Source: Candidatus Microgenomatus sp. (GTDB lineage: Bacteria; Patescibacteriota; Microgenomatia; UBA8517). Taken from it: a stretch of 64,000 bases of DNA. The notes below the pieces were generated by a model. It saw only the letters and a list, made by a program, of their open reading frames with translations, did no database searches and had not been told where the DNA came from. The translations under genes and the position numbers were made by a program. Position 1 is the first letter of the stretch, and each line of letters starts with the position of its first letter. Where the stretch lies: NCBI GenBank assembly GCA_020724555.1, contig DYGT01000007.1, positions 15,258 to 79,257 of the forward strand. Reading direction: 5' to 3'. Shown one piece after another: positions 37,585 to 52,463 of the stretch.

Positions 37585-37610
37585 TACTGTTATACAATTG
37601 TATAACAGTA
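37585..37610. promoter_or_regulatory. 26-bp perfect palindrome TACTGTTATACAA|TTGTATAACAGTA overlapping the TTG start of the first island gene
   Basis: Exact dyad read from the sequence; spans the start codon at 37598. Confidence 0.4.
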
Positions 37611-39025: not shown

Positions 39026-40173
39026 ATAATTACTGGAAATTTGCAACACCGAAATATTTAACTGCAGGAATGAGCTTAGTCTCAAATCTTACTGACTATA
39101 TTAACGATTTTGGGATAAAGAAGCCCTTTATTGTTATTGATCCCAAACTAAAAAAAGAAAGCAAAGCCATAAAAGCTTTAATAAAACAACTTGAATCTCT
39201 TGATATATTTATCTTTGAAGACTTCTCAACAAACCCAACAACTGATCAGGTGAGTAAATCAGTTAGTTTTTATCTTAAATTCAAACCTGATAGTGTAATT
39301 GCTATTGGTGGCGGTAGTGCAATCGATTTAGCAAAAGCTACTACTCTGGTCGCCCTGAATGGAGGAAACATTGAGGAATATTTGGCGGGGAGAAAAGGGA
39401 ACCGCGAATTTCCGCCCTTTATAGCAATTCCCTCCACATGCGGAACCGGCTCGGAAGCCAGTCCTTACGCAGTGATACTAGATCCCAAAACGAAAAAGAA
39501 AAGAGGGATTGAAGATTCCAATTTTTTACCAAAATTGGTTGTTCTTGATCCAAGACTATTGGATTCACTAGATACCACCATTCTTGCCGCGACAGCAATT
39601 GATGCTCTTGCACATATTCTTGAATCATTCATTTCTAAAAAGGCAAATGAAATTACACGAAGTTCAGCAAGAGGATTAATGATCGGATTAAAAAAATATA
39701 TTGAAGATGCTTCTGTGAAACGTGATTTAAATGCCGGCGCAGCAATGCTAAATGCCTCTTTTTCCTCTCGCCTCCTTTACCCTCGCACGGGCTTAACTAT
39801 TGCCCACGCTCTTTCTCATCCGTTGGGAGCATACACAAATATCCATCACGGCATGGCGGTTAGTTTCTTTTTACCAGTCTCGTTTAAAGTTAACCAGGAA
39901 TACTGTAAGGATTCGCTGAAAGAGGCAGTAAATCTGTTGGGATTTACTAACTTAGAACAATTTGATCAGTGGTTCAAAGACTTTTGTGATAAGGCCGGAA
40001 TCACAAGTTATCTGTGTGACTACTTGAAAGATGAAGATCTCCCTATTGAAATCTTAGCGAAAGACGCGCTTGAAAGTAGCAATATCCCTTCTAATCCTAA
40101 ACCAGTTAACAAGGAAGACTTAATTGGTGTTATTAATGATTCGCTAGCCTATTGGAGGATATATGGGAACTAA
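39022..40173 (+). CDS. Iron-containing alcohol dehydrogenase family oxidoreductase
   Basis: GGGSAIDLAKA NAD-binding motif and His-rich metal site (HALSHPLG, HHGMA). Confidence 0.8.
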   Translation: MNNYWKFATPKYLTAGMSLVSNLTDYINDFGIKKPFIVIDPKLKKESKAIKALIKQLESLDIFIFEDFSTNPTTDQVSKSVSFYLKFKPDSVIAIGGGSAIDLAKATTLVALNGGNIEEYLAGRKGNREFPPFIAIPSTCGTGSEASPYAVILDPKTKKKRGIEDSNFLPKLVVLDPRLLDSLDTTILAATAIDALAHILESFISKKANEITRSSARGLMIGLKKYIEDASVKRDLNAGAAMLNASFSSRLLYPRTGLTIAHALSHPLGAYTNIHHGMAVSFFLPVSFKVNQEYCKDSLKEAVNLLGFTNLEQFDQWFKDFCDKAGITSYLCDYLKDEDLPIEILAKDALESSNIPSNPKPVNKEDLIGVINDSLAYWRIYGN

Positions 40174-40999
40174 AGAAACTGGAGAAACTACTCCGATTGA
40201 AGACTTAATATTGTCTAGGTTTAATGAGGTTAATGTAGAAGCTATTAATATCATTCGACAATGGAGAGCTGGACAGAAGAGAGTTTTGGATAAAGTTAAT
40301 GCAAACGGGGCACATGATGTCGTTACAGATGTAGATATAACCATCGAATCCCTTACCAGACAAACATTTGCTGATACAATTCCTGTATTCGGTGAAGAGG
40401 GCTTTAATAATGACGCTTACGTTGTTGAAAAACCGCTATATATCGTTGTCGACCCTATAGATGGGACAAAAGAATTCGCAAAAGGCAGTAATGAATGGAG
40501 TATATCCCTTTGCGCTGTCCAGAATGGGGTACCAATTGTCGCATCTATTTTTATGCCAGATAAAGGAGAATGTTTTACTGCAATTAAAAACAAAGGGGTA
40601 AGGTTAAATGGTTTACCTTTAAAATCGCAGCAAGCCAATAATGGCAAAATTGCTGTAAGCCCGCGACAAATTAAAGACCCAGTGTTTGGTGAATCTATAA
40701 GAAGGACTGGATTGGTCGCTGCCGAAGTTTCTGCCTTAACACCGAAAATATGCGCAATACTTCGTGGAGAGGTGCAATCTGCGGTCTACTTTCCTCAGGA
40801 CGGGCAATCCGCTGCTTTATGGGACTATGCCGCAGGTGTATTGCTCGTCCAGGAGTTTGGTGGAAGGATAAGCTCGCTATGTGGTGCTGATCTTCCTTTC
40901 AGGGGAGCAGATATTATTCACAAAAAAGGATGGCTAGCTACTCGAGAAATTGATCATACGCAATTGTTAGCTTGTCTTAACAGCCTAGGTGAACTATAA
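40163..40999 (+). CDS. Inositol monophosphatase / FIG-family phosphatase
   Basis: DPIDGT and WDxAAG motifs. Confidence 0.8.
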   Translation: MGTKETGETTPIEDLILSRFNEVNVEAINIIRQWRAGQKRVLDKVNANGAHDVVTDVDITIESLTRQTFADTIPVFGEEGFNNDAYVVEKPLYIVVDPIDGTKEFAKGSNEWSISLCAVQNGVPIVASIFMPDKGECFTAIKNKGVRLNGLPLKSQQANNGKIAVSPRQIKDPVFGESIRRTGLVAAEVSALTPKICAILRGEVQSAVYFPQDGQSAALWDYAAGVLLVQEFGGRISSLCGADLPFRGADIIHKKGWLATREIDHTQLLACLNSLGEL

Positions 41000-41007: not shown

Positions 41008-41541
41008 ATGACAAAAGTACAAAAATGGCAAGAGCTTTCGAGAGAAATAGCCTTTCAAAAATATAGTCGCAAAATTGAAAAAGTAATGTTTAAACTTCCC
41101 GATGGAAAAGAAACTGACTTTTATATCAAAAGAGAAGGTCCAGCAGCTGGAGTTCTGGCAATAACAAAAAATAAACAAGTAATTCTTGTAAAGCAATATC
41201 GACCTGGACCGGAAGAAGTTCTCCTTGAGCTGCCCGGCGGCTATGTTGATCCCAATGAAAAACCAGAAAAGACAATGGAGCGTGAATTACTTGAAGAAAC
41301 AGGATATAAAGGCAAGGTAAAACTTGTCACCACCTGTTTTGACGATGCCTACTCTACAATGAACAGATACTGCTTTGTCGCAACTGATTGTGAGAAAGTC
41401 AGTGAACCCCAGACAGGTGAGCATGAATTTGTAGAACTTGAACTCCTAACTCTAGAAGATTTCAGAAAGCTTTTGCGTAGCGGCAAGATGACCGATGTTG
41501 AGGTGGGATACCTCGGTCTTGATTTTCTAAACCTTCTGTAA
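41008..41541 (+). CDS. Nudix hydrolase (ADP-ribose pyrophosphatase-like)
   Basis: Nudix box GGYVDPNEKPEKTMERELLEETG. Confidence 0.8.
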   Translation: MTKVQKWQELSREIAFQKYSRKIEKVMFKLPDGKETDFYIKREGPAAGVLAITKNKQVILVKQYRPGPEEVLLELPGGYVDPNEKPEKTMERELLEETGYKGKVKLVTTCFDDAYSTMNRYCFVATDCEKVSEPQTGEHEFVELELLTLEDFRKLLRSGKMTDVEVGYLGLDFLNLL

Positions 41542-41566
41542 TAACAGAATAAATCGCTCCAATAAT

Positions 41567-42127
41567 ATGAAAATATTTTTTCATTCCTCAATCTTTGCCA
41601 AAGAGCATTATGAAGAAGCCTACCTTTTAATTGTTAAAATTTGCAAAGACCATGGTCATACAGTATTTGCTGATCATATGCTCAAACGCGATTACCATGA
41701 TACGGACAAGTATACTAGAGAACAGCACCAGCAGGATTTTCAAAGATTGACGAAACAAATCAAGGAATGTGATGTTGTTATTGTTGAAGGAACTGCCCCC
41801 AGCATTGGAACTGGCCATTACATGACTATTGCATTAGGTTATCTGAAGCCAGTTTTAGTGCTTCACCAAAATGAACCGCATGGAGTGTTGGTTGGTGACC
41901 CAAACAGGCTATTGTCCTTAAGGAGGTATTCAATGAATGACAAAAAAGGGTTGGAGAAGACAATCAAAGATTTTCTGAGAAACGCCGAAAAGAAAACTTT
42001 GAAAAATAGATTCAACTTAATGCTAGACGATGAGATGATAGACTTTCTTGAAAGATACTCCAAACAAGATAAGGCCAGTAAGGCTGATGTAATCAGGCGA
42101 TTAATACTGGAGAGAATGAACAAGTAA
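41567..42127 (+). CDS. Nucleoside 2-deoxyribosyltransferase-like domain fused to a C-terminal ribbon-helix-helix (CopG/Arc-like) domain
   Basis: KIFFHSSIF...CDVVIVEGTAPSIGTGHYMTIALGYLKPVLVL resembles the NDT-like Rossmannoid fold; C-terminal RFNLMLDDEMIDFLERY...ADVIRRLILERM has the RHH beta-alpha-alpha pattern. Confidence 0.45.
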   Translation: MKIFFHSSIFAKEHYEEAYLLIVKICKDHGHTVFADHMLKRDYHDTDKYTREQHQQDFQRLTKQIKECDVVIVEGTAPSIGTGHYMTIALGYLKPVLVLHQNEPHGVLVGDPNRLLSLRRYSMNDKKGLEKTIKDFLRNAEKKTLKNRFNLMLDDEMIDFLERYSKQDKASKADVIRRLILERMNK

Positions 42128-42129
42128 AA

Positions 42130-43023
42130 TTAATCTTTCCTCCCGAATTGCCTTAGTCTTTCTGGAGTACCAAGATCTGGAGCAGGCTGACCGATATCAA
42201 ATGTCCCCACTTGGACACCTTTATCTATAAGCCAAGGGATAAACTGTCTATACATGTCAACGACTCTAAGATCGCCACTTTCTTGTAAAAATTTTTGATA
42301 TGTAAGCAAATAAAATTCCCGATTGGCGATAGCCACACCCACGCTTGTACTTGGAATTAGTCCGTCAGAAAACAAGCTGATGTCTATATTGGGATTGTTT
42401 TCAAAGGTATGAACAACATTTCGGCTAAGGGGATCAACTAATATTCTCCCAGAGTTTTGGGCATTTTCTCCAGGAGATGTTGTTACAACCCAAGTAATAG
42501 ATGTATCTTGAGCCTTGTGGTTTTCAAGTATCTGAGGTAACAAACTGAAGGGGAATAATGTATCTGCTGGTACAATCGCTACAGTTGAGTATTCGGATAG
42601 ATTAAGAGCGTTAAATACAGCTCCCGCTGTCCCTAACGGTTGCTCTTCTCTGATAAATCTGACTGTGTTTTGATGATTGGCAGTGGTATGATCTTCTATA
42701 AGTGAACCTTGGGCTTCTGGGTCAGAACTAGTTAACAAAACAACATCTTTTATTCCTGTTGCAAAAATACCATATAGAGCATTGTCCAACATCGGTAATC
42801 TGCCATCACCTGAGTCTATTGGCACTAATGGCTTGGGCAAAGTTTGCAAGTCTGGGTCGTCAGACTTTTTTAGTCTAGAGCCCTTTCCTCCTGCCAAGAT
42901 AAGCACTCCTACTCCAATCTTTTGAGCCTCTAATTCAGGCGCAATTCGTTTTTCGCCAAATTCCAGAGATAGAGGTGTCTCAATTTCTTTATTTAACATG
43001 CTGACTTTGATTCCGTTATACAA
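42130..43023 (-). CDS. Sugar-phosphate nucleotidyltransferase (GlmU/RmlA-like NTP_transferase)
   Basis: LILAGGKGSRL nucleotide-binding motif. Confidence 0.8.
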   Translation of the reverse strand: MYNGIKVSMLNKEIETPLSLEFGEKRIAPELEAQKIGVGVLILAGGKGSRLKKSDDPDLQTLPKPLVPIDSGDGRLPMLDNALYGIFATGIKDVVLLTSSDPEAQGSLIEDHTTANHQNTVRFIREEQPLGTAGAVFNALNLSEYSTVAIVPADTLFPFSLLPQILENHKAQDTSITWVVTTSPGENAQNSGRILVDPLSRNVVHTFENNPNIDISLFSDGLIPSTSVGVAIANREFYLLTYQKFLQESGDLRVVDMYRQFIPWLIDKGVQVGTFDIGQPAPDLGTPERLRQFGRKD

Positions 43024-43159
43024 CTACATAACATTCTGATATTCTATAACAACTGCTTGAATTCAGCAATATTATGTGATTTTTAAGAGGTAAACGATAA
43101 AAAAATCTCAGGTAAAACATTCAGATAATTATCCGAAGCCGAAGTGGTACAATAGCTTC

Positions 43160-43537
43160 ATGTCAGATATCAAAGAACTCACTAAGAAAATTAACCAATG
43201 GGTAGCAGAGCGTGGATGGGAGAAGGCACAAAAACCCAAAGATTTAGCAATCTCGCTATCGCTTGAGGCAGCAGAAGTGCTTGAACACTTCCAGTGGAAG
43301 AATGAAAGAAAAGTTGCTAAGCATATTAAAGAAAACAAAGAGGAACTGGCAGATGAGCTTGCGGATGTGGCAATTTATCTCTTGAAACTTGCGGACAAAA
43401 CTAAAATTGATTTGAGAACTGCAGTTGAAAACAAATTGATTAAAGCTTCAAAGAAATATCCTGTAGAAGTGGTTAAGGGAAACTCGAAAGAGTATTACAA
43501 TTTGAAGAAGCAAGCTCGGGCCCAGCGACCATTATAA
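43160..43537 (+). CDS. MazG-like nucleotide pyrophosphohydrolase (small all-alpha type)
   Basis: EExxE...ELADV acidic motifs typical of MazG/HisE. Confidence 0.65.
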   Translation: MSDIKELTKKINQWVAERGWEKAQKPKDLAISLSLEAAEVLEHFQWKNERKVAKHIKENKEELADELADVAIYLLKLADKTKIDLRTAVENKLIKASKKYPVEVVKGNSKEYYNLKKQARAQRPL

Positions 43538-43550
43538 TTTCAACTATCCC

Positions 43551-43958
43551 TTATACCAGCTCAAAGACTTTCTTTTCATCTTCATGCTTCATAATTTCTT
43601 TTACTTTTTCAAGTCTCATCCAATCGTAACCAATACTTTCTTCATTCAAAGTAATAGGCGTATCTAAATCCCTGATTTTTAATGCTACGAAATGAATCTC
43701 TGTTAGTCTATGTTTGCCTTCAAATTCAATTTTGTAATTTAGGTTTTTAGTTTCTTCTAGATATCCAATTCCAAACTCTTCTGATACTTCTCTTTTTGCT
43801 GCATCTTCTAAATTTTCATTGGGTTCAATATCTCCAAAGATAATGGTCCACTCATCCTCATATCCGTTAAAAGGCTTGTTATGCCGAAGTAAGAATCTTC
43901 TGTTCCCTTCCGTGTCAATTGTCCAAACTATAACTGCAACTTTTTGGTGTTTACTCAT
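43551..43958 (-). CDS. Nudix hydrolase
   Basis: Nudix box GDIEPNENLEDAAKREVSEEFG. Confidence 0.75.
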   Translation of the reverse strand: MSKHQKVAVIVWTIDTEGNRRFLLRHNKPFNGYEDEWTIIFGDIEPNENLEDAAKREVSEEFGIGYLEETKNLNYKIEFEGKHRLTEIHFVALKIRDLDTPITLNEESIGYDWMRLEKVKEIMKHEDEKKVFELV

Positions 43959-44452
43959 GTTTCTAGGATTTTATTGTAAAACATATATTTTGCTCTCTGG
44001 TAGTCTATAAAACTCTTGCCATTAAATTTAAGTTTTAGCTCCTCATATTCTTTTAACAACTCTTTGTTTGATTTGAGTATGTCATAGACTTTAATTTGTC
44101 TGTCTGGTGGCTCAGTCAAATAGAGTTCTACTGGATATCCTTTCTCAGTAAATGACCATTCGATAAAAGTTTCATGAATATTTTTAGGTTTGCCAAAGAG
44201 TTTTTCTAAAATCGGTAAGTGTTCACCAAATTTACTAGATTCTGATAACACATAAATATCAATATCATTTTGTCCTGCAATTCCAAGCGCTGTTGCCCCC
44301 ATAAATAACACACGAGCATCAGGCAATTTGTCTTTGATTCTTTTGACTATTAAATCTCCAGTTTCTTTTGCTCTTGGATCAAATGCCGAAATGCTGACCT
44401 TCCTTGTCGGATCAATTTTGGCTAAATAATTTTCCTCATCTTGCGTTAACAT
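43955..44452 (-). CDS. GrpB-family nucleotidyltransferase-fold protein
   Basis: MGATALGIAGQNDIDIYV motif typical of GrpB (UPF0157). Confidence 0.6.
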   Translation of the reverse strand: MLTQDEENYLAKIDPTRKVSISAFDPRAKETGDLIVKRIKDKLPDARVLFMGATALGIAGQNDIDIYVLSESSKFGEHLPILEKLFGKPKNIHETFIEWSFTEKGYPVELYLTEPPDRQIKVYDILKSNKELLKEYEELKLKFNGKSFIDYQRAKYMFYNKILET

Positions 44453-44490
44453 GTCTTGATTATAGCCTGCCTTAGGTCAATAATACAGAA

Positions 44491-45246
44491 ATGTCTAAGT
44501 CAAAACTGCGTGAACCATTTTTAAGTGCTTACAAGAAAATAGAAGAACTTCAAAAATACGATCGCTATCTTGCGGCTTATATCTTCGGTTCAGTAGTACG
44601 AGGAGAGCAAGACAAAAATAGCGATCTTGATGTTATGGTTATCGTTGATGAGGATAATAATTGTAAAGAAATCAACCACCCAATTATTAATGGAATTAAG
44701 CTTGACATTACTTTTAGATCTCTGTCTCAAATAAAAGAAATTAACGACGATGTAGTCAAAAAGGGTGAAAGACTGCCCATGCTTGCTGAATCAATTATTG
44801 TCTTTGACAAAAATGGAGAGCTTAAGAAACTAAAACAAACATATTCCAATATGCGCCCAAAGGCAACAGAGCAAGATTTTCAACAAATCCACTTTATGCT
44901 TTACCACTCTGATAACAAGGCAAAGAGAAACCTGAAAAGTGACAAAGCGACAGCACTTCTTGCTCTATCTATAAACATAAATGACATCCTCAAATATCAT
45001 TACCATATTAATGGCAAGTGGTGGCTAAGCAATAAAAGATTACTTCCGGATTTAAGGCAATGGGATCCCAAAATGGCAAGATTAGTTGAGAGATTTGTAG
45101 GGACTTCCAATGTTGAGAAGAAATATCAAATTTGGAGCAAAATTCTGGATTATGTTGCCAACCCAATTGGTGGAAGAAAAGAAATCTCAGAGATTAATTG
45201 CAATTGTAAAACCTGTAAAAAAGACCTTACTCTTCTTACTTCTTAG
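44491..45246 (+). CDS. Pol-beta-superfamily nucleotidyltransferase (kanamycin/lincosamide NTase-like)
   Basis: GSVVRGEQDKNSDLDVMV motif (G[SG]x9-13DxD). Confidence 0.7.
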   Translation: MSKSKLREPFLSAYKKIEELQKYDRYLAAYIFGSVVRGEQDKNSDLDVMVIVDEDNNCKEINHPIINGIKLDITFRSLSQIKEINDDVVKKGERLPMLAESIIVFDKNGELKKLKQTYSNMRPKATEQDFQQIHFMLYHSDNKAKRNLKSDKATALLALSININDILKYHYHINGKWWLSNKRLLPDLRQWDPKMARLVERFVGTSNVEKKYQIWSKILDYVANPIGGRKEISEINCNCKTCKKDLTLLTS

Positions 45247-45272
45247 CTATCTATGCTAAACTAGCCTCATCT

Positions 45273-45734
45273 ATGGAAAATAAAATTAAAATCAGACTCA
45301 GATTAGTAATTATTAAGGAGGATAAGCTTCTGGCTTACTATGATTCAATGGATGATTATTATTTTTATATTGGGGGCAAGCTAGAGTTTAGGGAAACTAT
45401 TGAAGATGGTTGGAAGCGGGAGATTAAGGAGGAGTTGGGCAATGATGTTGAATTTACTTTTAAGAAAATACTCTATGTCAGAGATTTTATTCTTAAAGAG
45501 AAAAATGAACACAGTCTTGAGCTATTTATCTTGGGAGATATTAATAAGTTTATGGAAATAGACGAGCGCCCTGACTCAGAGTTTGACGGCAAGAAATGGC
45601 CAAAATGGCTAGATCTAAATAATTTACCAGATAATCTTTATCCTAAACCTTTGAGTAAAAAGCTTCTTACGGATTACAAAGCAGGATTCCCAAGAGAGGG
45701 AGAATATATAGGAAGGATGGATTCAAATGACTGA
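45273..45734 (+). CDS. Nudix-like hydrolase
   Basis: Nudix box GKLEFRETIEDGWKREIKEELG fits Gx5Ex7REUxEExGU. Confidence 0.6.
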   Translation: MENKIKIRLRLVIIKEDKLLAYYDSMDDYYFYIGGKLEFRETIEDGWKREIKEELGNDVEFTFKKILYVRDFILKEKNEHSLELFILGDINKFMEIDERPDSEFDGKKWPKWLDLNNLPDNLYPKPLSKKLLTDYKAGFPREGEYIGRMDSND

Positions 45735-46317
45735 AGAGAAAGAACTACTCACAATTTTATCGAAAGTAGAGTATGAGAAGGTACTTGCTCGTCTAGTTAA
45801 AAAGTTTGGAGATCCTGAAATTGTCAAAAGGCTTTCGCTTCAATCAACAGATTACAGATGGGCGGATGTAGATACAAGAATCAGGATTACCAATGGAAAA
45901 GCTGAGATTATTCAAAAAGTTGGTGATTGGAAGAAACAAAACCGCCAGGAAATCACAATTCCTCTGCCTTCTGACCCCAAAATAATTTTTGACATGTACA
46001 AGATTTTTATGAATGCGATGCGAGATGAAAAGGTACTAACTCCAATAATGCAATACGAGAATAAGTTATTTAAAACCAAAAATTTTGAAATCAAATTAAC
46101 TTACCAGTTTGGCAAAAAAGATGCATACAATTGTGAAATTGAAGTTTTTGACCATGCCCTTGAGCCAGATGATTTGGCTAAAAAGTATAATATTCCAATT
46201 CACTTACCAGAACAAACCCAAGATTTTTGGAAAAATTGGAATGAAATTGTTAATTTATCAGCTACAGAATTATCGGATGATGAGTTGTTAAAAATAATTT
46301 CTAAATATATTAACTAA
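45727..46317 (+). CDS. Hypothetical protein (possible CYTH-like fold)
   Basis: Weak resemblance (IRITNG...EIEVF) to the triphosphate-tunnel family; low confidence. Confidence 0.25.
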   Translation: MTEEKELLTILSKVEYEKVLARLVKKFGDPEIVKRLSLQSTDYRWADVDTRIRITNGKAEIIQKVGDWKKQNRQEITIPLPSDPKIIFDMYKIFMNAMRDEKVLTPIMQYENKLFKTKNFEIKLTYQFGKKDAYNCEIEVFDHALEPDDLAKKYNIPIHLPEQTQDFWKNWNEIVNLSATELSDDELLKIISKYIN

Positions 46318-46318
46318 T

Positions 46319-46753
46319 ATGACTGAAAAACAGCACGATTTTGTTTTTGAGACTAAGTATTGGGAAGTATATCTCAACCCTGATCAGTATTACTTGGGTC
46401 GTTGTGTTGTTTTTGCAAAAAGAGATGTAGGAGCAATGAGTGAGTTAACTCGCGAAGAATGGCTTGATTTTGCAGAACTATCTCGAAAGATTGAAAAAGG
46501 GTTTAAACAAAAGTTTGGCGCAACAATGTTTAATTGGACTTGTCTTATGAATAATGCTTATCAAGAAGAAAATCCCCACCCTTGGGTGCATTGGCATATG
46601 AGACCAAGATATAAAAATCCAGTTGAATTTGCGGGCCAGAAATTTGAAGACAAAGAATTTGGGCATCATTATGCTAGGCAAACCGAACAAACAGTCTCGC
46701 CTGAAGTTTTTACTAAAATTGTTGAAGAAATAGAGAGCTTTTTAGAAAAATAA
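46319..46753 (+). CDS. HIT-like (histidine triad) nucleotide hydrolase/transferase
   Basis: His triad HPWVHWHMRP (HxHxHxx). Confidence 0.6.
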   Translation: MTEKQHDFVFETKYWEVYLNPDQYYLGRCVVFAKRDVGAMSELTREEWLDFAELSRKIEKGFKQKFGATMFNWTCLMNNAYQEENPHPWVHWHMRPRYKNPVEFAGQKFEDKEFGHHYARQTEQTVSPEVFTKIVEEIESFLEK

Positions 46754-46755
46754 CT

Positions 46756-47334
46756 ATGTACACAGAATTTGAAGCAACATTCACAGATATCAGTAAAGAT
46801 GAAGCAAGAGAAAAACTTAAAAAAGCTGGGGCAAAGTTAGTTCGTGAGGAGTATCTTCAAAAGCGTTGTGTTTTTAATCTTCCAAAAAGTCATGAAATAA
46901 AAGGAGGATGGCTAAGAGTGAGAGATGAAGGAGACAAAATCACAATGAGCCTCAAAATTGTTGATGGAGATAAAATTGAAAATCAAAAAGAAACACAACT
47001 TGTAATTGATAATTTTGAAAATGCAGTAAATCTTTTTGAAAGCATTGGATGTATCAAAAAAGCATATCAAGAAAGCAAACGAGAACTTTGGAAGTTAAAG
47101 GATGTCGAAATAACAATTGATGAATTGCCTTTCCTTGAGCCGTTTGTTGAAATTGAAGGCAAATCTGAAGAGGAAGTAAAAGAAGTAGCTCAGAAACTTG
47201 GACTTGATTATTCAAAAGCAAAATTCTGTGCTGTTGACACACTTTACTCTGAAAAATATGGCATTTCTGAAGACAGAATAAACAACCACACCCCAGAAAT
47301 ATTATTTGAATCAGAAAATCCATTTATTAAATGA
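46756..47334 (+). CDS. CYTH-domain protein (triphosphate tunnel metalloenzyme)
   Basis: N-terminal EFEATF (ExExK-like), WLRVRDEG, C-terminal ExE (FVEIEGK). Confidence 0.55.
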   Translation: MYTEFEATFTDISKDEAREKLKKAGAKLVREEYLQKRCVFNLPKSHEIKGGWLRVRDEGDKITMSLKIVDGDKIENQKETQLVIDNFENAVNLFESIGCIKKAYQESKRELWKLKDVEITIDELPFLEPFVEIEGKSEEEVKEVAQKLGLDYSKAKFCAVDTLYSEKYGISEDRINNHTPEILFESENPFIK

Positions 47335-48338
47335 AAACTCTAAAAATTGCAGTTGGAACTACATCCGAACAGAAGATTGGATATCTAAAAGAAGTTTTGG
47401 ATGAAATTGGGATAGGTGCTGAAATTGTCCCAACGGATGTCAAAAGTGGAGTTTCCGATCAGCCAATCACTGAAGAAGAAACTCAAACGGGCTCACTTAA
47501 CCGTGCTAAGGCTGCATTTGAAAGTGTTGAAGATGTCGATTTTGGGATTGGGATAGAAGTCGGATATCACAAAAATAAGAATGAGGATTTCGAGATGTTT
47601 TGCTGCACTTCAATCTTTGGCAAAGGTGAGGCTATAGCGAGTTGTTTTTCGACTAGGTTCTTGCTTCCTGATTTTCACCAACAGATATTAAAGGAAAATA
47701 AATATCTTGGAGAATATGTGCGTAAATACAAAGAAGAGGTTGACGAGCCAGTTATAAACTATACAAGAGAATTGGTCCGTGGCAGAAAACCGTTAATTGT
47801 TGAAGCAACAAGAAATGTCTTACTTCAATTTCTAGAACTACATGCAACAGTTAGCCATTTACTAAAGTCTGATAGCTTAGGTTATAGAGATAAATCACTT
47901 GGAGTAATAATAGACAAAGACAAAAATTTTCTCCTAGTCCAACTACATAGCTATGGAGAAAATGACTGGAATTTTCCTGGTGGCGGAATCGAAGACGGAG
48001 AAACTCCTGAAGAAGCCTTATTAAGAGAATTATCTGAAGAGCTTGGAAGTAAAAAATTCAAAATCCTTGCAAAAAGTGAAAAACAAATAGAGTATGATTG
48101 GCCTGATTTCATTATCGTCAAAGATATCAAAAAAAGAAACGGCAAAACTTTTAGAGGTCAAAGACAGCATATATTCTTGGTTGAATTTAGCGGAGGCAAA
48201 GATGAGATTAATCCTGACCCAGGTGAGATACGACATACTAAATGGGTGAAAAAAGATGAGTTAAAAGACCACCTCAATTTCCCCAGCCAGAAGGAAATAT
48301 TTGATGAGGTGATTAAGGAGTTGCTTACTGAATTATGA
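47331..48338 (+). CDS. Fusion protein: N-terminal YjjX/Ham1-like non-canonical NTP pyrophosphatase, C-terminal Nudix domain
   Basis: N-terminal KIAVGTTSEQKIGYLKEV...SGVSDQP (NTPase_I-T/Maf-Ham1 type); C-terminal Nudix box PGGGIEDGETPEEALLRELSEELG. Confidence 0.6.
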   Translation: MKTLKIAVGTTSEQKIGYLKEVLDEIGIGAEIVPTDVKSGVSDQPITEEETQTGSLNRAKAAFESVEDVDFGIGIEVGYHKNKNEDFEMFCCTSIFGKGEAIASCFSTRFLLPDFHQQILKENKYLGEYVRKYKEEVDEPVINYTRELVRGRKPLIVEATRNVLLQFLELHATVSHLLKSDSLGYRDKSLGVIIDKDKNFLLVQLHSYGENDWNFPGGGIEDGETPEEALLRELSEELGSKKFKILAKSEKQIEYDWPDFIIVKDIKKRNGKTFRGQRQHIFLVEFSGGKDEINPDPGEIRHTKWVKKDELKDHLNFPSQKEIFDEVIKELLTEL

Positions 48339-48377
48339 ATATTTATTTAAAAGGCAATTATAAATCATTCATCAGAC

Positions 48378-49082
48378 TTGATGTTTTCAAAACTAAAAAG
48401 AAAACAAATAAAGTGTATCTTAATGTGCATGGGTTATATGCCATGTCTGGAGACAGAGGTTCTAAGTCAAAGTTTTTTGGGAAACAGGACACTGGAGAAA
48501 AATATAGCCAATGTAGTCCAGTTTTCCTCCTCTCGTGACTGGAATATCTTCCCTCCAGATGGGACTTATTCAAAGCAACAAGAGTCATTCAAGGGTAAAA
48601 CTTTTGTGCAAGAAGCTCAAGATTTGAGAGATGCAATTGATTTGATTCTTGACCAAAGTAAATATCTTTTTGGTATCGAGAAAGGAAAGCTGAGATTTTA
48701 TATAGTAGCTAATTCAATCGGTGGAACCGTTACTACAACTTTAAAAGATAAGTTTAAATATATTGATAAAATCGTGTTGGCTGGATTTGGAACCAGACCG
48801 TCAGATTCCACAAAACCAATTCTTTCAACCTGTCCAACTGAAAAAGAAATTCTTGATTCGGCTGCAAAATTTAACGGAGAACTACTTTTTCTCCAAGGAA
48901 GCAAGGATGACGTGGTGCCCATTGAAGCGCAGGATAAATTGTTTGCAAGTTATAAGCATGCCAAAAAAGAAAAAGTGATTGTTGAAGGAGCAAATCACAA
49001 CTTCTCAAAGTTAAACGGAAAAGACAAAAGATTGGTTCAGAAATTGTATGTTGATTTCATTCTTAAATTTTTGGTCAAATGA
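48378..49082 (+). CDS. Alpha/beta-fold hydrolase
   Basis: Nucleophile elbow ANSIGG (GxSxG); catalytic Asp/His region (DDVVP, ANHNF). Confidence 0.55.
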   Translation: MMFSKLKRKQIKCILMCMGYMPCLETEVLSQSFLGNRTLEKNIANVVQFSSSRDWNIFPPDGTYSKQQESFKGKTFVQEAQDLRDAIDLILDQSKYLFGIEKGKLRFYIVANSIGGTVTTTLKDKFKYIDKIVLAGFGTRPSDSTKPILSTCPTEKEILDSAAKFNGELLFLQGSKDDVVPIEAQDKLFASYKHAKKEKVIVEGANHNFSKLNGKDKRLVQKLYVDFILKFLVK

Positions 49083-49597
49083 AATATCATCAAGACACAT
49101 ATTTATACAAAGGCACTAAGGTTACAAATACCTGGATTAAAACTGACAATCTTGAGAATTACTCTCCAATAACTCAGGTCTACGGAATCGTTTTTAACGA
49201 TAAAAATGAAGTCATAATTTGTCGTGAATCTAATAGCGGTAGCTGGATAATTCCAGGAGGACACCCAGAGGAAGGTGAATCTATTGAGCAAACACTAAAG
49301 CGAGAGCTTCAAGAAGAAGTGGATGTAGAGATCGAAGATATCAAACCATTAGGTGTCCAAAAGGTTACGTTTCCGGATGATGTTAATTCTGATAAAGCCA
49401 TATATCAAGTCAGATGTATTGCAAAACTCAAAAAACTGAATTCTCAAACTCCTGATCCTGCAAATGGGAATACTTGGGAGAGAAAATTTATTCCTGCTTC
49501 TGAAATTACAAACTATGTTAAGTGGGGAAAAACCGGAGAGGTAATGTTTAAGGATGCTGTTGAAGTTTATTCTTCTGGCTTGAAACCAATGATTTGA
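49079..49597 (+). CDS. Nudix hydrolase
   Basis: Nudix box GGHPEEGESIEQTLKRELQEEVDVE. Confidence 0.75.
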   Translation: MKYHQDTYLYKGTKVTNTWIKTDNLENYSPITQVYGIVFNDKNEVIICRESNSGSWIIPGGHPEEGESIEQTLKRELQEEVDVEIEDIKPLGVQKVTFPDDVNSDKAIYQVRCIAKLKKLNSQTPDPANGNTWERKFIPASEITNYVKWGKTGEVMFKDAVEVYSSGLKPMI

Positions 49598-49826
49598 TAC
49601 CCTTTTTCTTCTATCTCCTCTTTGCTCCAAAATGGTAAATCACGAGTTTTGACAATATATGTTACTTTCTTCTCAAGAGTTCTGCCTGTGTAATCTTTTT
49701 TCTCTGGATCCCACTCAAAACATCTCCTTCGTTACATTCAAAATCATTAAGCCTAACTTCGAAATTTTTGTCACCTTTTAATATTGCCTCAAAGTATGGT
49801 GGTTGAACTTTCTTTTCTATTTTCAT
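49568..49826 (-). pseudogene. DUF3850 (ASCH-like) gene interrupted by a frameshift near 49715
   Basis: MKIEKKVQPPYFEAILKGDKNFEVRLND...GDVL in one frame; the conserved continuation EWDPEKKDYTGRTLEKKVTYIVKTRDLPF...GYQIIGFKPEE* is in another frame. Confidence 0.5.
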
Positions 49827-49850: not shown

Positions 49851-50351
49851 ATGAGGCAAAAGCGGTATCAAGAGGTAAGGTTTTATCTATTTGCAAATTC
49901 ATACTCAGGCAAAGCTATAGTCACTTTTATTAGAGAAAAATATAAGAGGAAGAGATTAAATTATGTAGTGAAACGCTTATCATCAGTCTTGGGTTTTAAC
50001 TACAAACAAACGAAAAGACTCATTATTTTTGAGCTGATTCCAGACTGTCCTTATAAAAGATTGCCAAATAAATTGAAAATCTATCTTGAAATAGAAAAAG
50101 AATTAACAACTCTTGTACAGGAAAAATTAGATGAATACTCAACTGCACTGGAAGATTACCAGAGGCAATTATTAGCGCCCGCTATTGAGAGGGCAGCTGG
50201 TAATCTCATGATAGAAATTGAAGATAGAGAATTTGATAAAACGCTAGAAATACAAATAAGAAAATATAGCCATATTTATTATAGGACTGCATACAAGTAC
50301 AAATTAACAACTTTGAGGGTTGTACCATTCATACTTAGGTTAATATCCTAA
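49851..50351 (+). CDS. Hypothetical protein (start at MRQKRY)
   Basis: ORF only; the 5' end of the track ORF overlaps the DUF3850 gene. Confidence 0.3.
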   Translation: MRQKRYQEVRFYLFANSYSGKAIVTFIREKYKRKRLNYVVKRLSSVLGFNYKQTKRLIIFELIPDCPYKRLPNKLKIYLEIEKELTTLVQEKLDEYSTALEDYQRQLLAPAIERAAGNLMIEIEDREFDKTLEIQIRKYSHIYYRTAYKYKLTTLRVVPFILRLIS

Positions 50352-51559: not shown

Positions 51560-51764
51560 TGATTTCTTTGAGCTGTTGATTTTCTTTTTTGAGCCTCACG
51601 TGTTCCATCCAGCTAACTTGCTTGGCTACTCCACCCCTTAACCAATTGTAAATTGTTTTTCTACTGACCCCATACTTTTCAGATAAACTGGAGTCTGGCT
51701 CACCTGTTTTAACTTTACCCAAAATCTCCTTTTTAACTTCTTTTGCGACTGTCTTTCTTTGCAC
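51507..51764 (-). CDS. IS3 transposase OrfA (HTH)
   Basis: HTH_Tnp_1 pattern, leucine zipper, followed by an AAAAAAAAA -1 frameshift window. Confidence 0.8.
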   Translation of the reverse strand: MQRKTVAKEVKKEILGKVKTGEPDSSLSEKYGVSRKTIYNWLRGGVAKQVSWMEHVRLKKENQQLKEIIGVLTFELEKTKKKISG

Positions 51765-52419: not shown

Positions 52420-52430
52420 TTTATATAACC

Positions 52431-52463
52431 AAAGCTTGGCCTTCGGCTAAAGCAAAGCTTGGC
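52431..52463 (+). repeat. 33-nt element, copy B (identical to 37205-37237), in the blaI/M56 intergenic spacer
   Basis: Exact 33/33 match. Confidence 0.9.

What the first reader, a model, noticed from the sequence alone, without database searches (positions are those of the whole stretch)
41008..49826. Very dense cluster of nucleotide pyrophosphohydrolases and nucleotidyltransferases
Within about 9 kb there are five proteins with recognisable Nudix boxes (41008, 43551 minus strand, 45273, 47331 C-terminal half, 49079). There is also a MazG-like protein, a HIT-like protein with HxHxH, one clear CYTH protein and a second possible one, a YjjX/Ham1-like ITPase domain fused to a Nudix domain, and a DUF3850/ASCH-like gene. 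Three nucleotidyltransferases are present: a GlmU/RmlA-type, a GrpB-type and a KNTase-like Pol-beta type. A nucleoside-deoxyribosyltransferase-like/RHH fusion completes the set. Each family alone is ordinary house-cleaning, but co-location of nearly every NTP-pyrophosphatase superfamily together with NTases inside a repeat-bounded, IS-bearing segment is not typical of a core-genome layout. Candidate explanations are an acquired nucleotide-pool sanitation or salvage island for an organism that scavenges nucleotides, or a nucleotide-centric conflict/signalling system that makes and degrades a nucleotide derivative. It could also be a pathway that processes NDP-sugar or modified-nucleotide intermediates. 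This is the segment I consider most likely to hide an undescribed system, though I cannot assign a coherent mechanism from sequence alone.
Basis: partly seen in the sequence, partly recalled or inferred. Interest (0 to 1): 0.75.

Follow-up and report, generated by a model that had tools for sequence, protein, structure and literature searches.

The report
Variable nucleotide house-cleaning gene cluster
A tiny-genome symbiotic-type bacterium (Woesebacteria, CPR) keeps about a dozen different enzymes that destroy unwanted or abnormal nucleotides side by side in one strain-variable stretch of its chromosome; the families are ordinary, but their recurrent, gene-by-gene shuffled clustering in this bacterial group has apparently not been described.

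Summary
Between 41008 and 49826 lie five distinct Nudix genes, all with a complete Nudix box. There are also two unrelated CYTH/TTM proteins (the second shown by structure), a DCTPP1-like MazG and a HIT protein. A YjjX-ITPase::Nudix fusion, a DNPH1-like protein with a probable RHH tail and three nucleotidyltransferases complete the set. The window is core chromosome of a Woesebacteria (CPR) bacterium.

It is not a fixed multi-component system. Close relatives differ by single genes removed or added exactly at gene junctions, and two genes here are pseudogenes. One 88% relative shares only the fusion gene. Family-level linkage is nevertheless conserved. In 38 and 36 loci found with two independent anchors, these families reach 2.6-3.2 genes per 10 kb next to the anchor and about 0 beyond 5 kb. 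Pfam confirms this (NUDIX 15/148 versus at most 1/148). Fusions elsewhere (CYTH::PPase, GrpB::PPase, GrpB::Nudix) show functional coupling. Several cassettes are more similar between distant lineages than tRNA synthetases are, which suggests lateral exchange.

Best reading: a flexible toolkit that sanitises and salvages nucleotides in a scavenging organism. No known defence system and no viral relatives were found.

The parts
37598..40999 (+). Left flanking module: PGM/PMM-family mutase (37598-39025), Fe-alcohol dehydrogenase (39022-40173) and IMPase-family phosphatase (40163-40999). They are tightly packed with Nudix1 and the DNPH1-like gene, probably forming one transcription unit.
   Evidence: Pfam. 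In NCBIfam the best hit for the mutase is archaeal-type GlmM, below the cut-off. Overlapping or adjacent stop and start codons are seen.
41008..41541 (+). Nudix1, of the ADP-sugar / NudE / YffH-like type.
   Evidence: Pfam NUDIX, 69.1 bits. The closest NCBIfam families are NudE and YffH/AdpP, below their cut-offs. The box GYVDPNEKPEKTMERELLEETG is complete. 72% homologues lie 1-2 kb from the anchor Nudix in L033 and L035.
41567..42127 (+). DNPH1/Rcl-like (nucleoside 2-deoxyribosyltransferase fold) domain with a C-terminal probable ribbon-helix-helix tail.
   Evidence: Pfam Nuc_deoxyrib_tr, 30.2 bits against a cut-off of 28.8. The best PDB relatives are Rcl/DNPH1 (E = 7e-4), with the catalytic Glu and the PSxGxG motif aligned. 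RHH_1 scores 18.1 bits, below the cut-off of 20.5.
42130..43023 (-). Sugar-1-phosphate nucleotidylyltransferase (GlmU/RmlA/GlgC superfamily).
   Evidence: Pfam NTP_transferase, 57.7 bits. No NCBIfam equivalog is reached.
43160..43537 (+). MazG-like all-alpha NTP pyrophosphatase, DCTPP1/RS21-C6-like.
   Evidence: Pfam MazG-like, 66.5 bits. PDB hits are 4qgp (7e-17) and DCTPP1 (1e-15), with the acidic motifs aligned.
43551..44452 (-). GrpB nucleotidyltransferase (43955-44452) and Nudix2 (43551-43958), forming a two-gene unit with a 4-bp overlap.
   Evidence: Pfam. The same pair in the same order occurs in L014 (76% and 70% identity). GrpB::Nudix and GrpB::PPase fusion proteins occur in L114, L100, L110, L126 and L144.
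44491..45246 (+). KNTase-like two-domain Pol-beta nucleotidyltransferase with four invariant Cys residues. It is the first gene of the plus-strand run.
   Evidence: Pfam Polbeta/NTP_transf_2. AlphaFold pLDDT 93.2. The best Foldseek match is ANT(4')-Ia, TM 0.64 over 252 residues; HalB reaches only 0.35-0.40. Invariant GS...DxD and C58, C237, C239, C242.
45273..45734 (+). Nudix3, an atypical Nudix.
   Evidence: Pfam NUDIX, 26.4 bits. The box is complete. It is 86% identical to a gene in L009, whose core genes are only 45-63% identical.
45727..46317 (+). CYTH-b: a CYTH/TTM-fold protein from a family with no Pfam model, found in Woesebacteria and other Patescibacteria.
   Evidence: No Pfam, NCBIfam or PDB sequence hit. 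112 homologue clusters; all those that carry a source name come from Woesebacteria or Patescibacteria. AlphaFold pLDDT 93.7. Foldseek top hits are all CYTH/TTM. Invariant E4, E6, R51, R53, K64, E75, E121, K123, E137 and E139. Fused to inorganic pyrophosphatase in P0143.
46319..46753 (+). HIT-family protein. It is a variable cassette: present in L091, absent in L094.
   Evidence: Pfam HIT, 25.4 bits against a cut-off of 21.5. Aligned to 2oik, the motif is WVHWHM, with the first His replaced by Trp. Presence and absence.
46756..47334 (+). CYTH-a, a CyaB-like CYTH/TTM protein. It is a variable cassette, absent in L091 and L094.
   Evidence: Pfam CYTH, 44.4 bits. TIGR00318 scores 47.1 bits, below the cut-off of 58. 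It is 75-78% identical to genes in L009 and L019. The junctions are precise.
47331..48338 (+). YjjX-type ITPase/XTPase domain fused to an RppH-like Nudix domain. This gene was used as the anchor for the comparisons.
   Evidence: Pfam NTPase_I-T (76.5 bits) plus NUDIX (71.3 bits). Only 44 homologues in 5.8 billion proteins. Invariant residues and the Nudix box are seen in alignment A1.
48335..49082 (+). Alpha/beta hydrolase carrying a +1 frameshift in a T-run near 48473-48478. It is a probable pseudogene.
   Evidence: Pfam Hydrolase_4. DNA alignment with the intact 248-aa genes of L091 and L094 shows one extra base. The gene calls are shortened in the same way (219 aa in L001/L002, 233 aa in L003) in the three independent assemblies that reach the gene.
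49079..49597 (+). Nudix5, the most constant partner immediately downstream of the fusion.
   Evidence: Pfam NUDIX, 61.3 bits. Homologues directly follow the fusion in L005, L009, L091 and L094.
49567..49826 (-). DUF3850/ASCH-like gene inactivated by a 10-bp deletion.
   Evidence: Pfam DUF3850 on the N-terminal part only. Alignment with the intact 89-aa genes of L091 and L094 shows the deletion.
49851..50351 (+). Conserved hypothetical protein (166 aa) that accompanies DUF3850 in relatives.
   Evidence: No Pfam hit. It is 72% identical in L019, and sits in the same position in L091 and L094.
50779..51764 (-). Degraded IS3-family transposase, split into three ORFs.
   Evidence: rve and HTH_28 calls. 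Intact 262-aa plus 82-aa copies in L040 are 58-65% identical.
37200..37237 (+). Left copy of a 38-nt direct repeat. It sits between a 24-nt duplicate of the 5' end of tRNA-Gln and the intact tRNA-Gln (37259-37332).
   Evidence: It forms a hairpin of -31.5 kcal/mol, z = -3.7.
52426..52463 (+). Right copy of the 38-nt direct repeat (97% identical). It lies between the BlaI-like gene and the M56 peptidase gene.
   Evidence: These two genes overlap, with no repeat between them, in L008.

Best explanation
This is a strain-variable 'house-cleaning' neighbourhood in the chromosome of a Woesebacteria (CPR/Patescibacteria) bacterium. It is a set of mostly independent single-protein enzymes that act in parallel on the nucleotide pool, not one multi-component machine.

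Proposed roles of the parts (all substrate assignments are inferred):
- Five different Nudix hydrolases cleave NDP-X or NTP species.
- The DCTPP1-like MazG and the YjjX ITPase::Nudix fusion remove non-canonical (d)NTPs.
- Two unrelated CYTH/TTM enzymes hydrolyse triphosphates.
- The HIT protein cleaves nucleotidyl-X adducts.
- The DNPH1-like protein removes abnormal bases from dNMPs, or senses a nucleotide through its RHH tail.
- In relatives, an intact ASCH/DUF3850 would process modified cytidine, and inorganic pyrophosphatase would pull the reactions by removing PPi.
- The nucleotidyltransferases (GrpB and the KNTase-like enzyme) are coupled to these hydrolases. Their substrates are unknown.

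The genes are co-located because they sit in tightly packed transcription units within a recombination-permissive variable region. There, single genes are gained, lost and exchanged among Microgenomates-group lineages. The likely benefit is quality control and recycling of an imported, host- or environment-derived nucleotide pool in an organism from a group that generally cannot make nucleotides.

Shown: family assignments, motif integrity, recurrent linkage, gene-level turnover, pseudogenes and fusions.
Inferred: substrates, co-transcription, the sanitation or salvage role and lateral transfer.
For: Families and motifs:
- Pfam assignments.
- All five Nudix boxes are intact, and they are the only ones in 64 kb.
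- The MazG-like protein resembles DCTPP1.
- The NDT-like protein resembles the pool sanitiser DNPH1, with the catalytic Glu retained (PMC10603095).
- CYTH-b has the TTM fold.
- ASCH proteins deacetylate N4-acetylcytidine (PMC6972931).

Organism:
- The closest species representative is a Woesebacteria genome, with 88% identity in the fusion gene.
- The rest of the window is core chromosome.
- CPR bacteria often lack nucleotide synthesis (PMC7304191).

Linkage across genomes:
- With the fusion/Nudix anchor (38 loci), family density per 10 kb is 2.56 at 0-2.5 kb, 0.92 at 2.5-5 kb, 0.15 at 5-7.5 kb and 0.00 at 7.5-10 kb.
- With the independent CYTH-b anchor (36 metagenome loci), the values are 3.22, 0.95, 0.00 and 0.25.
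- Curated Pfam models give NUDIX in 15 of 148 ORFs within 3 kb, against at most 1 of 148 at 6.5-9.5 kb. GrpB, NTPase_I-T, Ham1 and HD also appear near the anchors. Fisher p <= 3.7e-4.

Functional coupling, shown by fusion proteins:
- ITPase::Nudix.
- CYTH-b::PPase.
- GrpB::PPase and GrpB::Nudix.
- Pyrophosphatase genes sit in the neighbourhoods of L005, L007, L094 and L095, and in L096 the PPase domain is fused to CYTH-b.

Fluidity:
- HIT and CYTH-a are present or absent between 89-94% relatives, with exact junctions.
- Two genes are pseudogenes here.
- Nudix3 (86%), CYTH-a (75-78%), Nudix2 (76%) and GrpB (70%) are more similar to genes in L009, L014 and L019 than AspRS, GluRS and RelA are (42-63%).
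- GC falls to 0.345 against about 0.40 around the cluster.
Against: - No substrate has been measured, and every enzyme falls below the NCBIfam equivalog cut-offs. Specific activities are therefore guesses.
- About half of the fusion-anchored genomes have the fusion as a singleton, with no further member of these families within 10 kb (L011, L015, L018, L021, L022). The clustering is therefore dispensable.
- Sanitation does not explain a KNTase-like NTase, a GrpB NTase or an alpha/beta hydrolase.
- SAM methyltransferases and GNATs are also common near the anchors. This could indicate a broader small-molecule-modifying or detoxifying accessory region.
- Both CYTH proteins lack the canonical Lys of ExExK, and the HIT protein lacks the first His, so their chemistry may differ.
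- The family HMMs used for the distance profiles were home-made from cluster members. Only the Nudix result was re-checked with curated models.
- Genome-wide counts could not be made.
Confidence: 0.58

Rival explanations
1. It is a nucleotide-centric conflict or signalling system. One of the nucleotidyltransferases would make a nucleotide-derived signal or toxin, and the Nudix, CYTH and HIT enzymes would degrade or regulate it, as in CBASS-, Thoeris- or Hailong-like defence or the systems catalogued by Burroughs and Aravind.
For: - The family mix of NTase, Nudix, CYTH, HIT, a SLOG/NDT-like sensor fold and an RHH tail is typical of such systems (own knowledge).
- Fast gene turnover, low GC and an IS remnant resemble a defence island.
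- L091 carries an N6/N4 MTase, an EVE protein and a DEAD helicase next to the cluster, and L098 carries MNT/HepT pairs.
- There are weak NCBIfam and PADLOC hits of the NTase to HalB, MntA and PDC-S09.
Against: - PADLOC returns only generic single-domain candidates (PDC-S07 Nudix, PDC-S09 MNT) and no system.
- The NTase fold matches antibiotic-type ANT(4') over both domains (TM 0.64) but HalB only at 0.35-0.40.
- No effector gene (TIR, nuclease, pore or protease) is present in the segment.
- Membership is not fixed, so there is no obligatory partner set.
- No defence families stand out near the anchors.
Confidence: 0.1
2. It is a small-molecule (antibiotic or xenobiotic) modification and detoxification accessory region. 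The KNTase-like and GrpB nucleotidyltransferases, the alpha/beta hydrolase and, in relatives, GNATs and methyltransferases would inactivate foreign compounds. The Nudix, HIT and PPase enzymes would recycle the nucleotidylated products and PPi.
For: - The KNTase-like fold match to ANT(4'), LinB and ANT(6).
- GrpB::PPase fusions.
- GNAT (4) and SAM-MTase (6) families lie among the 148 ORFs nearest the anchors.
- Downstream genes are stress or resistance types: BlaI/M56, DsbA/DsbD, CsoR, Cu-ATPase and MacB.
Against: - The NCBIfam ANT(4')-I and Lnu models score far below their cut-offs (15.6 bits against 350).
- The dominant and most consistently linked families are NTP and NDP hydrolases (Nudix, ITPase, CYTH, Ham1, PPase) that have no role in drug modification.
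- The alpha/beta hydrolase is frameshifted in this genome.
Confidence: 0.12
3. It is an NDP-sugar or cell-envelope precursor pathway. PGM/PMM, the sugar-1-P nucleotidylyltransferase, IMPase and Nudix1 would make and trim activated sugars, and the other hydrolases would edit intermediates.
For: - PGM/PMM, Fe-ADH, IMPase, Nudix1 (NudE/YffH/NudK-like) and the DNPH1-like gene form one tightly packed run, next to a convergent NTP_transferase gene.
- In L094 an NTP_transferase sits among glycosyltransferases next to the cluster.
Against: - This can account only for 37.6-43.0 kb.
- None of these left-hand genes travels with the core cluster in L009, L014, L019 or L091.
- There are no glycosyltransferase, epimerase or dehydratase genes in the segment.
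Confidence: 0.12
4. It is a coincidental pile-up of unrelated house-cleaning genes with no selective or mechanistic reason for co-location.
For: - Several relatives have the fusion gene as a singleton.
- The nearest species representative (88%) shares none of the other genes within 10 kb.
- Two members are decaying.
Against: - Steep distance decay with two independent anchors in 38 and 36 loci.
- Confirmation with curated Pfam models, p <= 3.7e-4.
- Repeated gene fusions between members.
- Conserved sub-blocks across lineages whose core genes are about 50% identical.
Confidence: 0.05

Closest known systems
Classical house-cleaning NTP pyrophosphatases (MutT/Nudix, MazG/DCTPP1, YjjX and RdgB/Ham1 ITPases, DNPH1)
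   Same: The enzyme superfamilies and catalytic motifs are the same: Nudix box, acidic MazG helices, NTPase_I-T and the DNPH1 catalytic Glu. The same single-protein, parallel-acting logic is expected.
   Different: - In model bacteria these genes are scattered (own knowledge). Here about a dozen sit together and the association recurs across a CPR clade.
- No member reaches an NCBIfam equivalog cut-off.
- Members are fused in unusual combinations (ITPase::Nudix, CYTH::PPase, GrpB::PPase).
Defence islands and other variable genomic hotspots
   Same: The cluster lies between conserved core blocks, with low GC, an IS remnant, gene-by-gene turnover between close strains and signs of lateral exchange.
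   Different: It has no recognised defence system or effector, no integrase, and no relatives on viral contigs. The cargo is metabolic hydrolases.
Nucleotide-centric conflict systems (Burroughs/Aravind-type NTase + Nudix/CYTH/HIT neighbourhoods; CBASS; Hailong HalB)
   Same: An NTase co-occurs with Nudix, CYTH and HIT proteins and an NDT/SLOG-like fold.
   Different: The NTase has the ANT(4')/KNTase architecture (TM 0.64), not that of a CD-NTase or HalB. There is no effector and no fixed gene set.
Kanamycin nucleotidyltransferase ANT(4')-Ia / LinB family (for gene 44491-45246)
   Same: The two-domain fold matches over the full length, and the GS...DxD active-site motif is present.
   Different: Identity is only 19%. 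NCBIfam ANT(4')-I scores 15.6 bits against a cut-off of 350. There is an extra invariant four-Cys site. The genomic context is nucleotide hydrolases rather than resistance cassettes.
CYTH/TTM triphosphatases (CyaB, Saci_0718, ygiF, thiamine triphosphatase)
   Same: The beta-barrel tunnel fold is present, as are conserved acidic and basic residues on the strands (ExE, RxR, ExK, ExE).
   Different: Both copies lack the Lys of the N-terminal ExExK signature. CYTH-b has no Pfam model, was found in Woesebacteria and other Patescibacteria (all source-named homologues), and is sometimes fused to PPase.

Membership tests
Nudix hydrolase superfamily (PF00293) | Nudix box GX5EX7REUXEEXGU | tested here: met
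   All five proteins match G.{5}E.{7}RE[U].EE. Nudix5 has Asp in place of the final Gly.
Nudix hydrolase superfamily (PF00293) | Pfam score above the gathering cut-off (21.1 bits) | tested here: met
   Scores are 69.1, 60.3, 26.4, 71.3 and 61.3 bits.
Specific Nudix equivalogs (MutT, RppH, NudE, NudI and others) | NCBIfam equivalog score above the curated cut-off | tested here: not met
   The best case is the fusion's Nudix half against RppH, 87 bits against a cut-off of 116. All the others fall far below their cut-offs.
CYTH / triphosphate tunnel metalloenzymes | Eight-stranded beta-barrel tunnel fold | tested here: met
   CYTH-b: AlphaFold pLDDT 93.7, and the Foldseek top hits are 2gfg, 7ns8, 3sy3 and 5a60 at probability 1.0. 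CYTH-a: Pfam CYTH, 44.4 bits.
CYTH / triphosphate tunnel metalloenzymes | N-terminal ExExK motif | tested here: not met
   CYTH-a reads EFEAT and CYTH-b reads EKELL. ExE is present but the Lys is absent. E4 and E6 are invariant in the CYTH-b family.
HIT superfamily | Histidine triad H-phi-H-phi-H-phi-phi | tested here: inconclusive
   Pfam scores 25.4 bits against a cut-off of 21.5. The motif aligned to 2oik is W-V-H-W-H-M. The central and third His are kept, and the first is replaced by Trp.
MazG-like all-alpha NTP pyrophosphatase (DCTPP1 type) | Pfam MazG-like above the cut-off, with conserved acidic residues on the helices | tested here: met
   66.5 bits against a cut-off of 27. The E/D positions align with 4qgp.
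YjjX-type ITPase/XTPase (NTPase_I-T) | Pfam PF01931 above the cut-off; equivalog TIGR00258 | tested here: inconclusive
   The Pfam test is met (76.5 bits against 25). The equivalog test is not met (66.4 bits against 117.1).
DNPH1 / nucleoside 2-deoxyribosyltransferase family | Pfam PF05014 above the cut-off, with the catalytic Glu in the (V/A)E(x)T...PSxGxG motif | tested here: met
   30.2 bits against a cut-off of 28.8. The alignment to Rcl keeps the Glu and PSxGxG, but the following YE is YM.
ANT(4') / KNTase aminoglycoside nucleotidyltransferases | Two-domain KNTase fold with the GS...DxD active site | tested here: met
   Foldseek TM 0.64 over 252 residues to 6nmk and 1kny. G33, S34, D45, D47 and D72 are invariant.
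ANT(4') / KNTase aminoglycoside nucleotidyltransferases | Sequence membership (NCBIfam ANT_4p_I cut-off) and an aminoglycoside-binding pocket | tested here: not met
   15.6 bits against a cut-off of 350. The binding pocket was not examined.
Known anti-phage defence systems (PADLOC-DB 2.0) | A hit to a system-specific model together with its partner genes | tested here: not met
   The only hits are PDC-S07 (generic Nudix), PDC-S09 and PDC-M05A (generic MNT). No system is complete.
Integrative genomic island at a tRNA gene | Integrase gene plus direct repeats derived from the tRNA at both ends | tested here: not met
   No integrase lies between 33 and 52 kb. The 24-nt tRNA-Gln duplicate is only 77 nt from the gene. 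The 38-nt repeat at 37200 and 52426 is not tRNA-derived.
Integron cassette array | attC sites between promoterless cassettes, plus IntI | tested here: not met
   Genes abut or overlap by 4-8 bp, leaving no room for attC. No repeat family occurs between genes. No integrase is present.
Prophage or viral element | Relatives on viral contigs, or phage structural genes | tested here: not met
   IMG/VR scans with the fusion and with CYTH-b found no relatives apart from one generic Nudix-box match.

The most novel reading that the evidence does not exclude
The neighbourhood would be a laterally exchanged, fast-turning-over arsenal aimed at modified nucleotides. CPR bacteria would use interchangeable Nudix, MazG, ITPase, CYTH, HIT, DNPH1-like and ASCH cassettes to destroy phage-specific modified dNTPs (hydroxymethyl-, deaza- or amino-purine types) or host-derived modified nucleotides. 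That would be an immunity-like pool-editing strategy, which would explain defence-island-style turnover without any classical effector. Hints only: preQ0/7-deazaguanine genes, a Q_salvage gene and an MTase+EVE+helicase trio lie beside the cluster in L007, L008 and L091.
Probability: 0.12. Interest if true: 0.75.

Novelty: new variant of a known kind. Interest (0 to 1): 0.42.

Why it matters
CPR/Patescibacteria have tiny genomes and generally cannot synthesise nucleotides, so they must live on imported ones. How they keep that second-hand pool clean is not known.

A recurrent, cassette-like cluster of nucleotide-sanitising enzymes gives concrete candidates to test: a Pfam-less CYTH family, an ITPase::Nudix fusion, a Cys-rich KNTase-like NTase and a DNPH1-like protein with a DNA-binding tail. 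It also suggests that this function is part of the flexible, exchanged gene pool rather than the core genome.

If the enzymes turn out to target modified nucleotides, the locus would link salvage, genome protection and possibly phage resistance in an uncultivated radiation. If not, it remains an ordinary, if unusually dense, collection of house-cleaning genes.

Tried and rejected
- PADLOC on all 16 cluster proteins gave only generic Nudix and MNT candidate hits. The defence-system reading was therefore not adopted.
- IMG/VR scans with the fusion and CYTH-b profiles found nothing. A prophage or viral origin was rejected.
- PDB sequence searches for CYTH-b (profile), the KNTase-like NTase and GrpB gave no significant hits or only generic ones. 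Structure prediction was needed instead.
- NCBIfam gave no equivalog-level assignment for any gene, so no specific substrate could be assigned.
- The promoter and terminator scan was uninformative: 28 promoter-like sites against 46.8 expected, and 11 terminators against 9.6.
- The tandem-duplication origin of the five Nudix genes was rejected. They share only the Nudix box.
- The integron-cassette idea was rejected. Genes overlap and there are no intergenic repeats.
- The classical tRNA-integrated island was rejected because there is no integrase. The 38-nt repeat pair at 37200 and 52426 is unique in the window, and among the other fetched loci it was found only in L001, a copy of the same contig. 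Its meaning is unresolved.
- Rfam found nothing but tRNA around the repeat.
- Literature searches for Nudix or house-cleaning clusters in CPR/Patescibacteria found no relevant paper.
- Genome-wide counts of these families in complete Woesebacteria genomes could not be made, because only 20-kb loci were accessible.

Full report
**1. What is there**

The five Nudix genes are:
- 41008-41541;
- 43551-43958 on the minus strand;
- 45273-45734;
- the C-terminal half of 47331-48338;
- 49079-49597.

All five have a complete Nudix box. No other ORF in the 64-kb window has one. The five proteins resemble each other only around the box, so they are different subfamilies and not recent duplicates.

The other genes in the segment are:
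- a DNPH1/Rcl-like protein with a sub-threshold ribbon-helix-helix tail (41567-42127);
- a sugar-1-phosphate nucleotidylyltransferase (42130-43023, minus strand);
- a DCTPP1-like MazG (43160-43537);
- GrpB (43955-44452, minus strand);
- a Pol-beta nucleotidyltransferase (44491-45246);
- a 196-aa protein with no Pfam hit (45727-46317);
- a HIT protein (46319-46753);
- a CYTH protein (46756-47334);
- a YjjX-type ITPase fused to an RppH-like Nudix (47331-48338);
- an alpha/beta hydrolase (48335-49082);
- DUF3850 (about 49567-49826, minus strand);
- a conserved hypothetical protein (49851-50351);
- a broken IS3 transposase (50779-51764).

**2. New facts about individual genes**

*The 196-aa protein.* It is a second CYTH/TTM enzyme. 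An AlphaFold model built on 22 homologues has pLDDT 93.7. Its Foldseek matches are all CYTH/TTM structures at probability 1.0. The family keeps the acidic and basic strand residues. It has 112 homologue clusters, and all those that carry a source name come from Woesebacteria or Patescibacteria. One member is fused to inorganic pyrophosphatase. Neither CYTH copy has the Lys of the ExExK signature.

*The Pol-beta NTase.* Its model (pLDDT 93.2) matches kanamycin nucleotidyltransferase ANT(4')-Ia over both domains (TM 0.64). It matches LinB and ANT(6) less well, and the Hailong HalB enzyme only at TM 0.35-0.40. It has four invariant cysteines. It scores far below the NCBIfam ANT cut-offs.

*The HIT protein.* The motif is WVHWHM; the first His is replaced by Trp.

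*Decayed genes.* Two genes are inactivated in this genome. The alpha/beta hydrolase has one extra base in a T-run, and its gene calls are shortened in the same way in the three independent assemblies that reach the gene (L001, L002 and L003). DUF3850 has a 10-bp deletion relative to the intact 89-aa genes of relatives.

**3. Organism and setting**

Exactly this cluster occurs on a 124-kb JGI metagenome contig and in three other assemblies. The nearest species representative is Candidatus Woesebacteria bacterium GW2011_GWB1_38_8b, with 88% identity in the fusion gene.

The rest of the window is ordinary chromosome: Adk, Map, S4, RpoA, RecA, RecX, RNase Y, MiaA, SecDF, the CCA enzyme, RecJ, RelA, AspRS and GluRS.

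The cluster lies in a stretch of lower GC, 0.345 against about 0.40. This stretch sits between two blocks that are syntenic in other genomes:
- The RelA-AspRS-GluRS block abuts the equivalent cluster in L009 and L014.
- The BlaI/M56/DsbA/DsbD/DUF3105 block follows the fusion gene in L008.

No integrase is present. IMG/VR holds no relatives.

**4. Is the linkage conserved?**

The answer is yes and no.

*Close relatives.* Differences are by single genes.
- L091 (fusion 94% identical) has NTase, Nudix3, CYTH-b, HIT, fusion, hydrolase, Nudix5, DUF3850 and the hypothetical protein, but no CYTH-a.
- L094 (89%) lacks both HIT and CYTH-a and has a pyrophosphatase instead of GrpB.
- The junctions are exact, and the 4-bp stop/start overlap is preserved.
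- L005 (82%) keeps only the fusion and Nudix5, surrounded by other phosphohydrolases.
- The 88% species representative L011 shares only the fusion.

*Distant lineages.* Genomes whose core genes are only 42-63% identical carry sub-blocks of the same cluster.
- L014 has CYTH-b, Nudix2-GrpB, the fusion and DUF3850.
- L019 has CYTH-b, CYTH-a, GrpB, the fusion, DUF3850 and the hypothetical protein.
- L009 has Nudix3, an ITPase, CYTH-a, Ham1, ASCH, an NTase, the fusion and Nudix5.
- These cassettes are 60-86% identical to the window's genes. That is more than the tRNA synthetases, and it points to lateral exchange. The fusion itself is only 35% identical.

**5. Quantification**

Family HMMs were built from cluster members, and gene density was counted as a function of distance from an anchor gene.

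| Anchor | Loci | 0-2.5 kb | 2.5-5 kb | 5-7.5 kb | 7.5-10 kb |
|---|---|---|---|---|---|
| Fusion/Nudix (genome contigs) | 38 | 2.56 | 0.92 | 0.15 | 0.00 |
| CYTH-b (metagenome contigs) | 36 | 3.22 | 0.95 | 0.00 | 0.25 |

Values are genes of these families per 10 kb.

A check with curated Pfam models was run on 24 loci. It gave NUDIX as the top family, in 15 of 148 ORFs within 3 kb of the anchors. GrpB, NTPase_I-T, Ham1 and HD also appeared there. At 6.5-9.5 kb, NUDIX was absent from the top 25 families of 148 ORFs, so it had at most one member. Fisher p <= 3.7e-4.

About half of the fusion-anchored genomes nevertheless have no further member of these families within 10 kb. SAM methyltransferases and GNATs were also frequent near the anchors.

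**6. Functional coupling**

Members are repeatedly fused to each other:
- ITPase::Nudix;
- CYTH-b::PPase;
- GrpB::PPase in four loci and GrpB::Nudix in one.

In this window GrpB and Nudix2 are overlapping neighbours. Pyrophosphatase genes sit inside the neighbourhoods of L005, L007, L094 and L095, and in L096 the PPase domain is fused to CYTH-b. This fits enzymes that release or consume PPi or PPPi being pulled by pyrophosphate removal.

**7. Interpretation**

The best-supported reading is a flexible house-cleaning and salvage toolkit. Parallel, substrate-specialised hydrolases clean and recycle an imported nucleotide pool. The organism belongs to a radiation reported to lack nucleotide synthesis in many members (PMC7304191).

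Characterised homologues support this:
- DNPH1 is a pool sanitiser (PMC10603095).
- DCTPP1 removes modified dCTP (own knowledge).
- YjjX hydrolyses ITP and XTP (own knowledge).
- ASCH proteins deacetylate N4-acetylcytidine in salvage (PMC6972931; bioRxiv 10.64898/2026.08.01.741249, title and abstract only).

Substrates, co-transcription and transfer are inferences.

Assessment of the rival readings:
- A signalling or defence system is not supported. PADLOC gives only generic hits, the NTase is KNTase-like, there is no effector, and membership is not fixed.
- An antibiotic or xenobiotic modification reading remains possible for the NTases, the hydrolase and the neighbouring GNATs and MTases.
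- The NDP-sugar idea fits only 37.6-43.0 kb.
- Pure coincidence is contradicted.

**8. Novelty**

All families are known. The following appear new:
- the recurrent but fluid clustering in Microgenomates-group CPR bacteria;
- the cassette-like single-gene turnover;
- the Pfam-less CYTH-b family;
- the fusion architectures.

Searches of the held literature found no description of such clusters in CPR. I rate it a new variant of a known kind, of moderate interest.

Noticed in passing
window 37178-37332 and 52426-52463: A 24-nt exact duplicate of the 5' end of tRNA-Gln (37178-37201) overlaps the stop of a GIY-YIG endonuclease gene (36879-37196). It is followed by a 38-nt element made of two GCAAAGCTTGGC half-palindromes, then the intact tRNA-Gln. 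The stretch folds into a long hairpin (-31.5 kcal/mol, z = -3.7). The same 38-nt element recurs once, 15.2 kb away, inserted between the BlaI-like and M56 genes, which overlap in L008. It could be a small mobile element, an operator or a recombination scar.
   Followed up: partly
window 46715-47370; L091 1917-1995; L094 9960-10040: Single genes (HIT, CYTH-a) are present or absent between close strains, with junctions falling exactly at stop/start codons. The ATGA overlap with the next gene is retained, and only AAAT(A/G)A-type microhomology is visible. This gives cassette-like turnover without any recognisable recombination site.
   Followed up: partly
window 48335-49082 and 49567-49826: The alpha/beta hydrolase is frameshifted by one extra base in a T-run, and DUF3850 has a 10-bp deletion. 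Both genes are intact in relatives. For the hydrolase, the gene calls are shortened in the same way in the three independent assemblies that reach the gene.
   Followed up: yes
window 44491-45246: The KNTase-like NTase family has four invariant cysteines (C58, C237, C239, C242), which suggests a metal site. At about 50% identity it is also found in Ktedonobacter and Nitrososphaerota entries, so it is widely exchanged.
   Followed up: partly
window 47331-48338 versus P0033, L009, L014 and L019: The fusion is a domain mosaic. Its ITPase half is 59% identical to the ITPase half of cytidylyltransferase::ITPase proteins (Microgenomates OLB22). The fusion as a whole is only 35% identical to the ITPase::Nudix proteins that occupy the same position in other Woesebacteria.
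   Followed up: no
L100, L110, L126, L144, L114; P0143 (L096): Several fusion proteins occur in these loci: GrpB::inorganic pyrophosphatase in four loci, GrpB::Nudix in one, and CYTH-b::pyrophosphatase.
   Followed up: partly
L007 2487-6066; L008 280-1275; L091 5229-8543: Genes for modified bases lie beside the cluster in relatives. L007 has preQ0/7-deazaguanine synthesis genes (FolE, QueD, QueC). L008 has a Q_salvage gene. L091 has an N6/N4 DNA methyltransferase, an EVE protein and a DEAD helicase trio.
   Followed up: no
24 loci, ORFs within 3 kb of the anchors (alignment A4): SAM-dependent methyltransferases (6) and GNAT acetyltransferases (4) are among the commonest families next to the anchors. 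They are absent from the top families 6.5-9.5 kb away.
   Followed up: no
window 33355-37196: Between the conserved GluRS block and tRNA-Gln lie a response regulator, a PAS histidine kinase, a stand-alone receiver domain, a DUF4258 protein, an unknown ORF and a GIY-YIG endonuclease. These also appear to be accessory genes.
   Followed up: no
Genome contigs record titles, L012, L015, L017, L018, L021 and others: Several contigs that clearly belong to CPR/Woesebacteria-like genomes are titled 'uncultured Gammaproteobacteria bacterium' in the public records. These taxonomic labels look wrong. L012 is the same record as L008, which shares the BlaI/M56/DsbA/DsbD/DUF3105 synteny and the fusion gene with the window.
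   Followed up: no
window 51997-58016: A block of BlaI-like repressor, M56 peptidase, DsbA, DsbD, DUF3105, CsoR and a copper P-type ATPase lies downstream. It is syntenic with L008, where MerT and a pyridine-nucleotide-disulfide (FAD) oxidoreductase, possibly MerA, are added.
   Followed up: no
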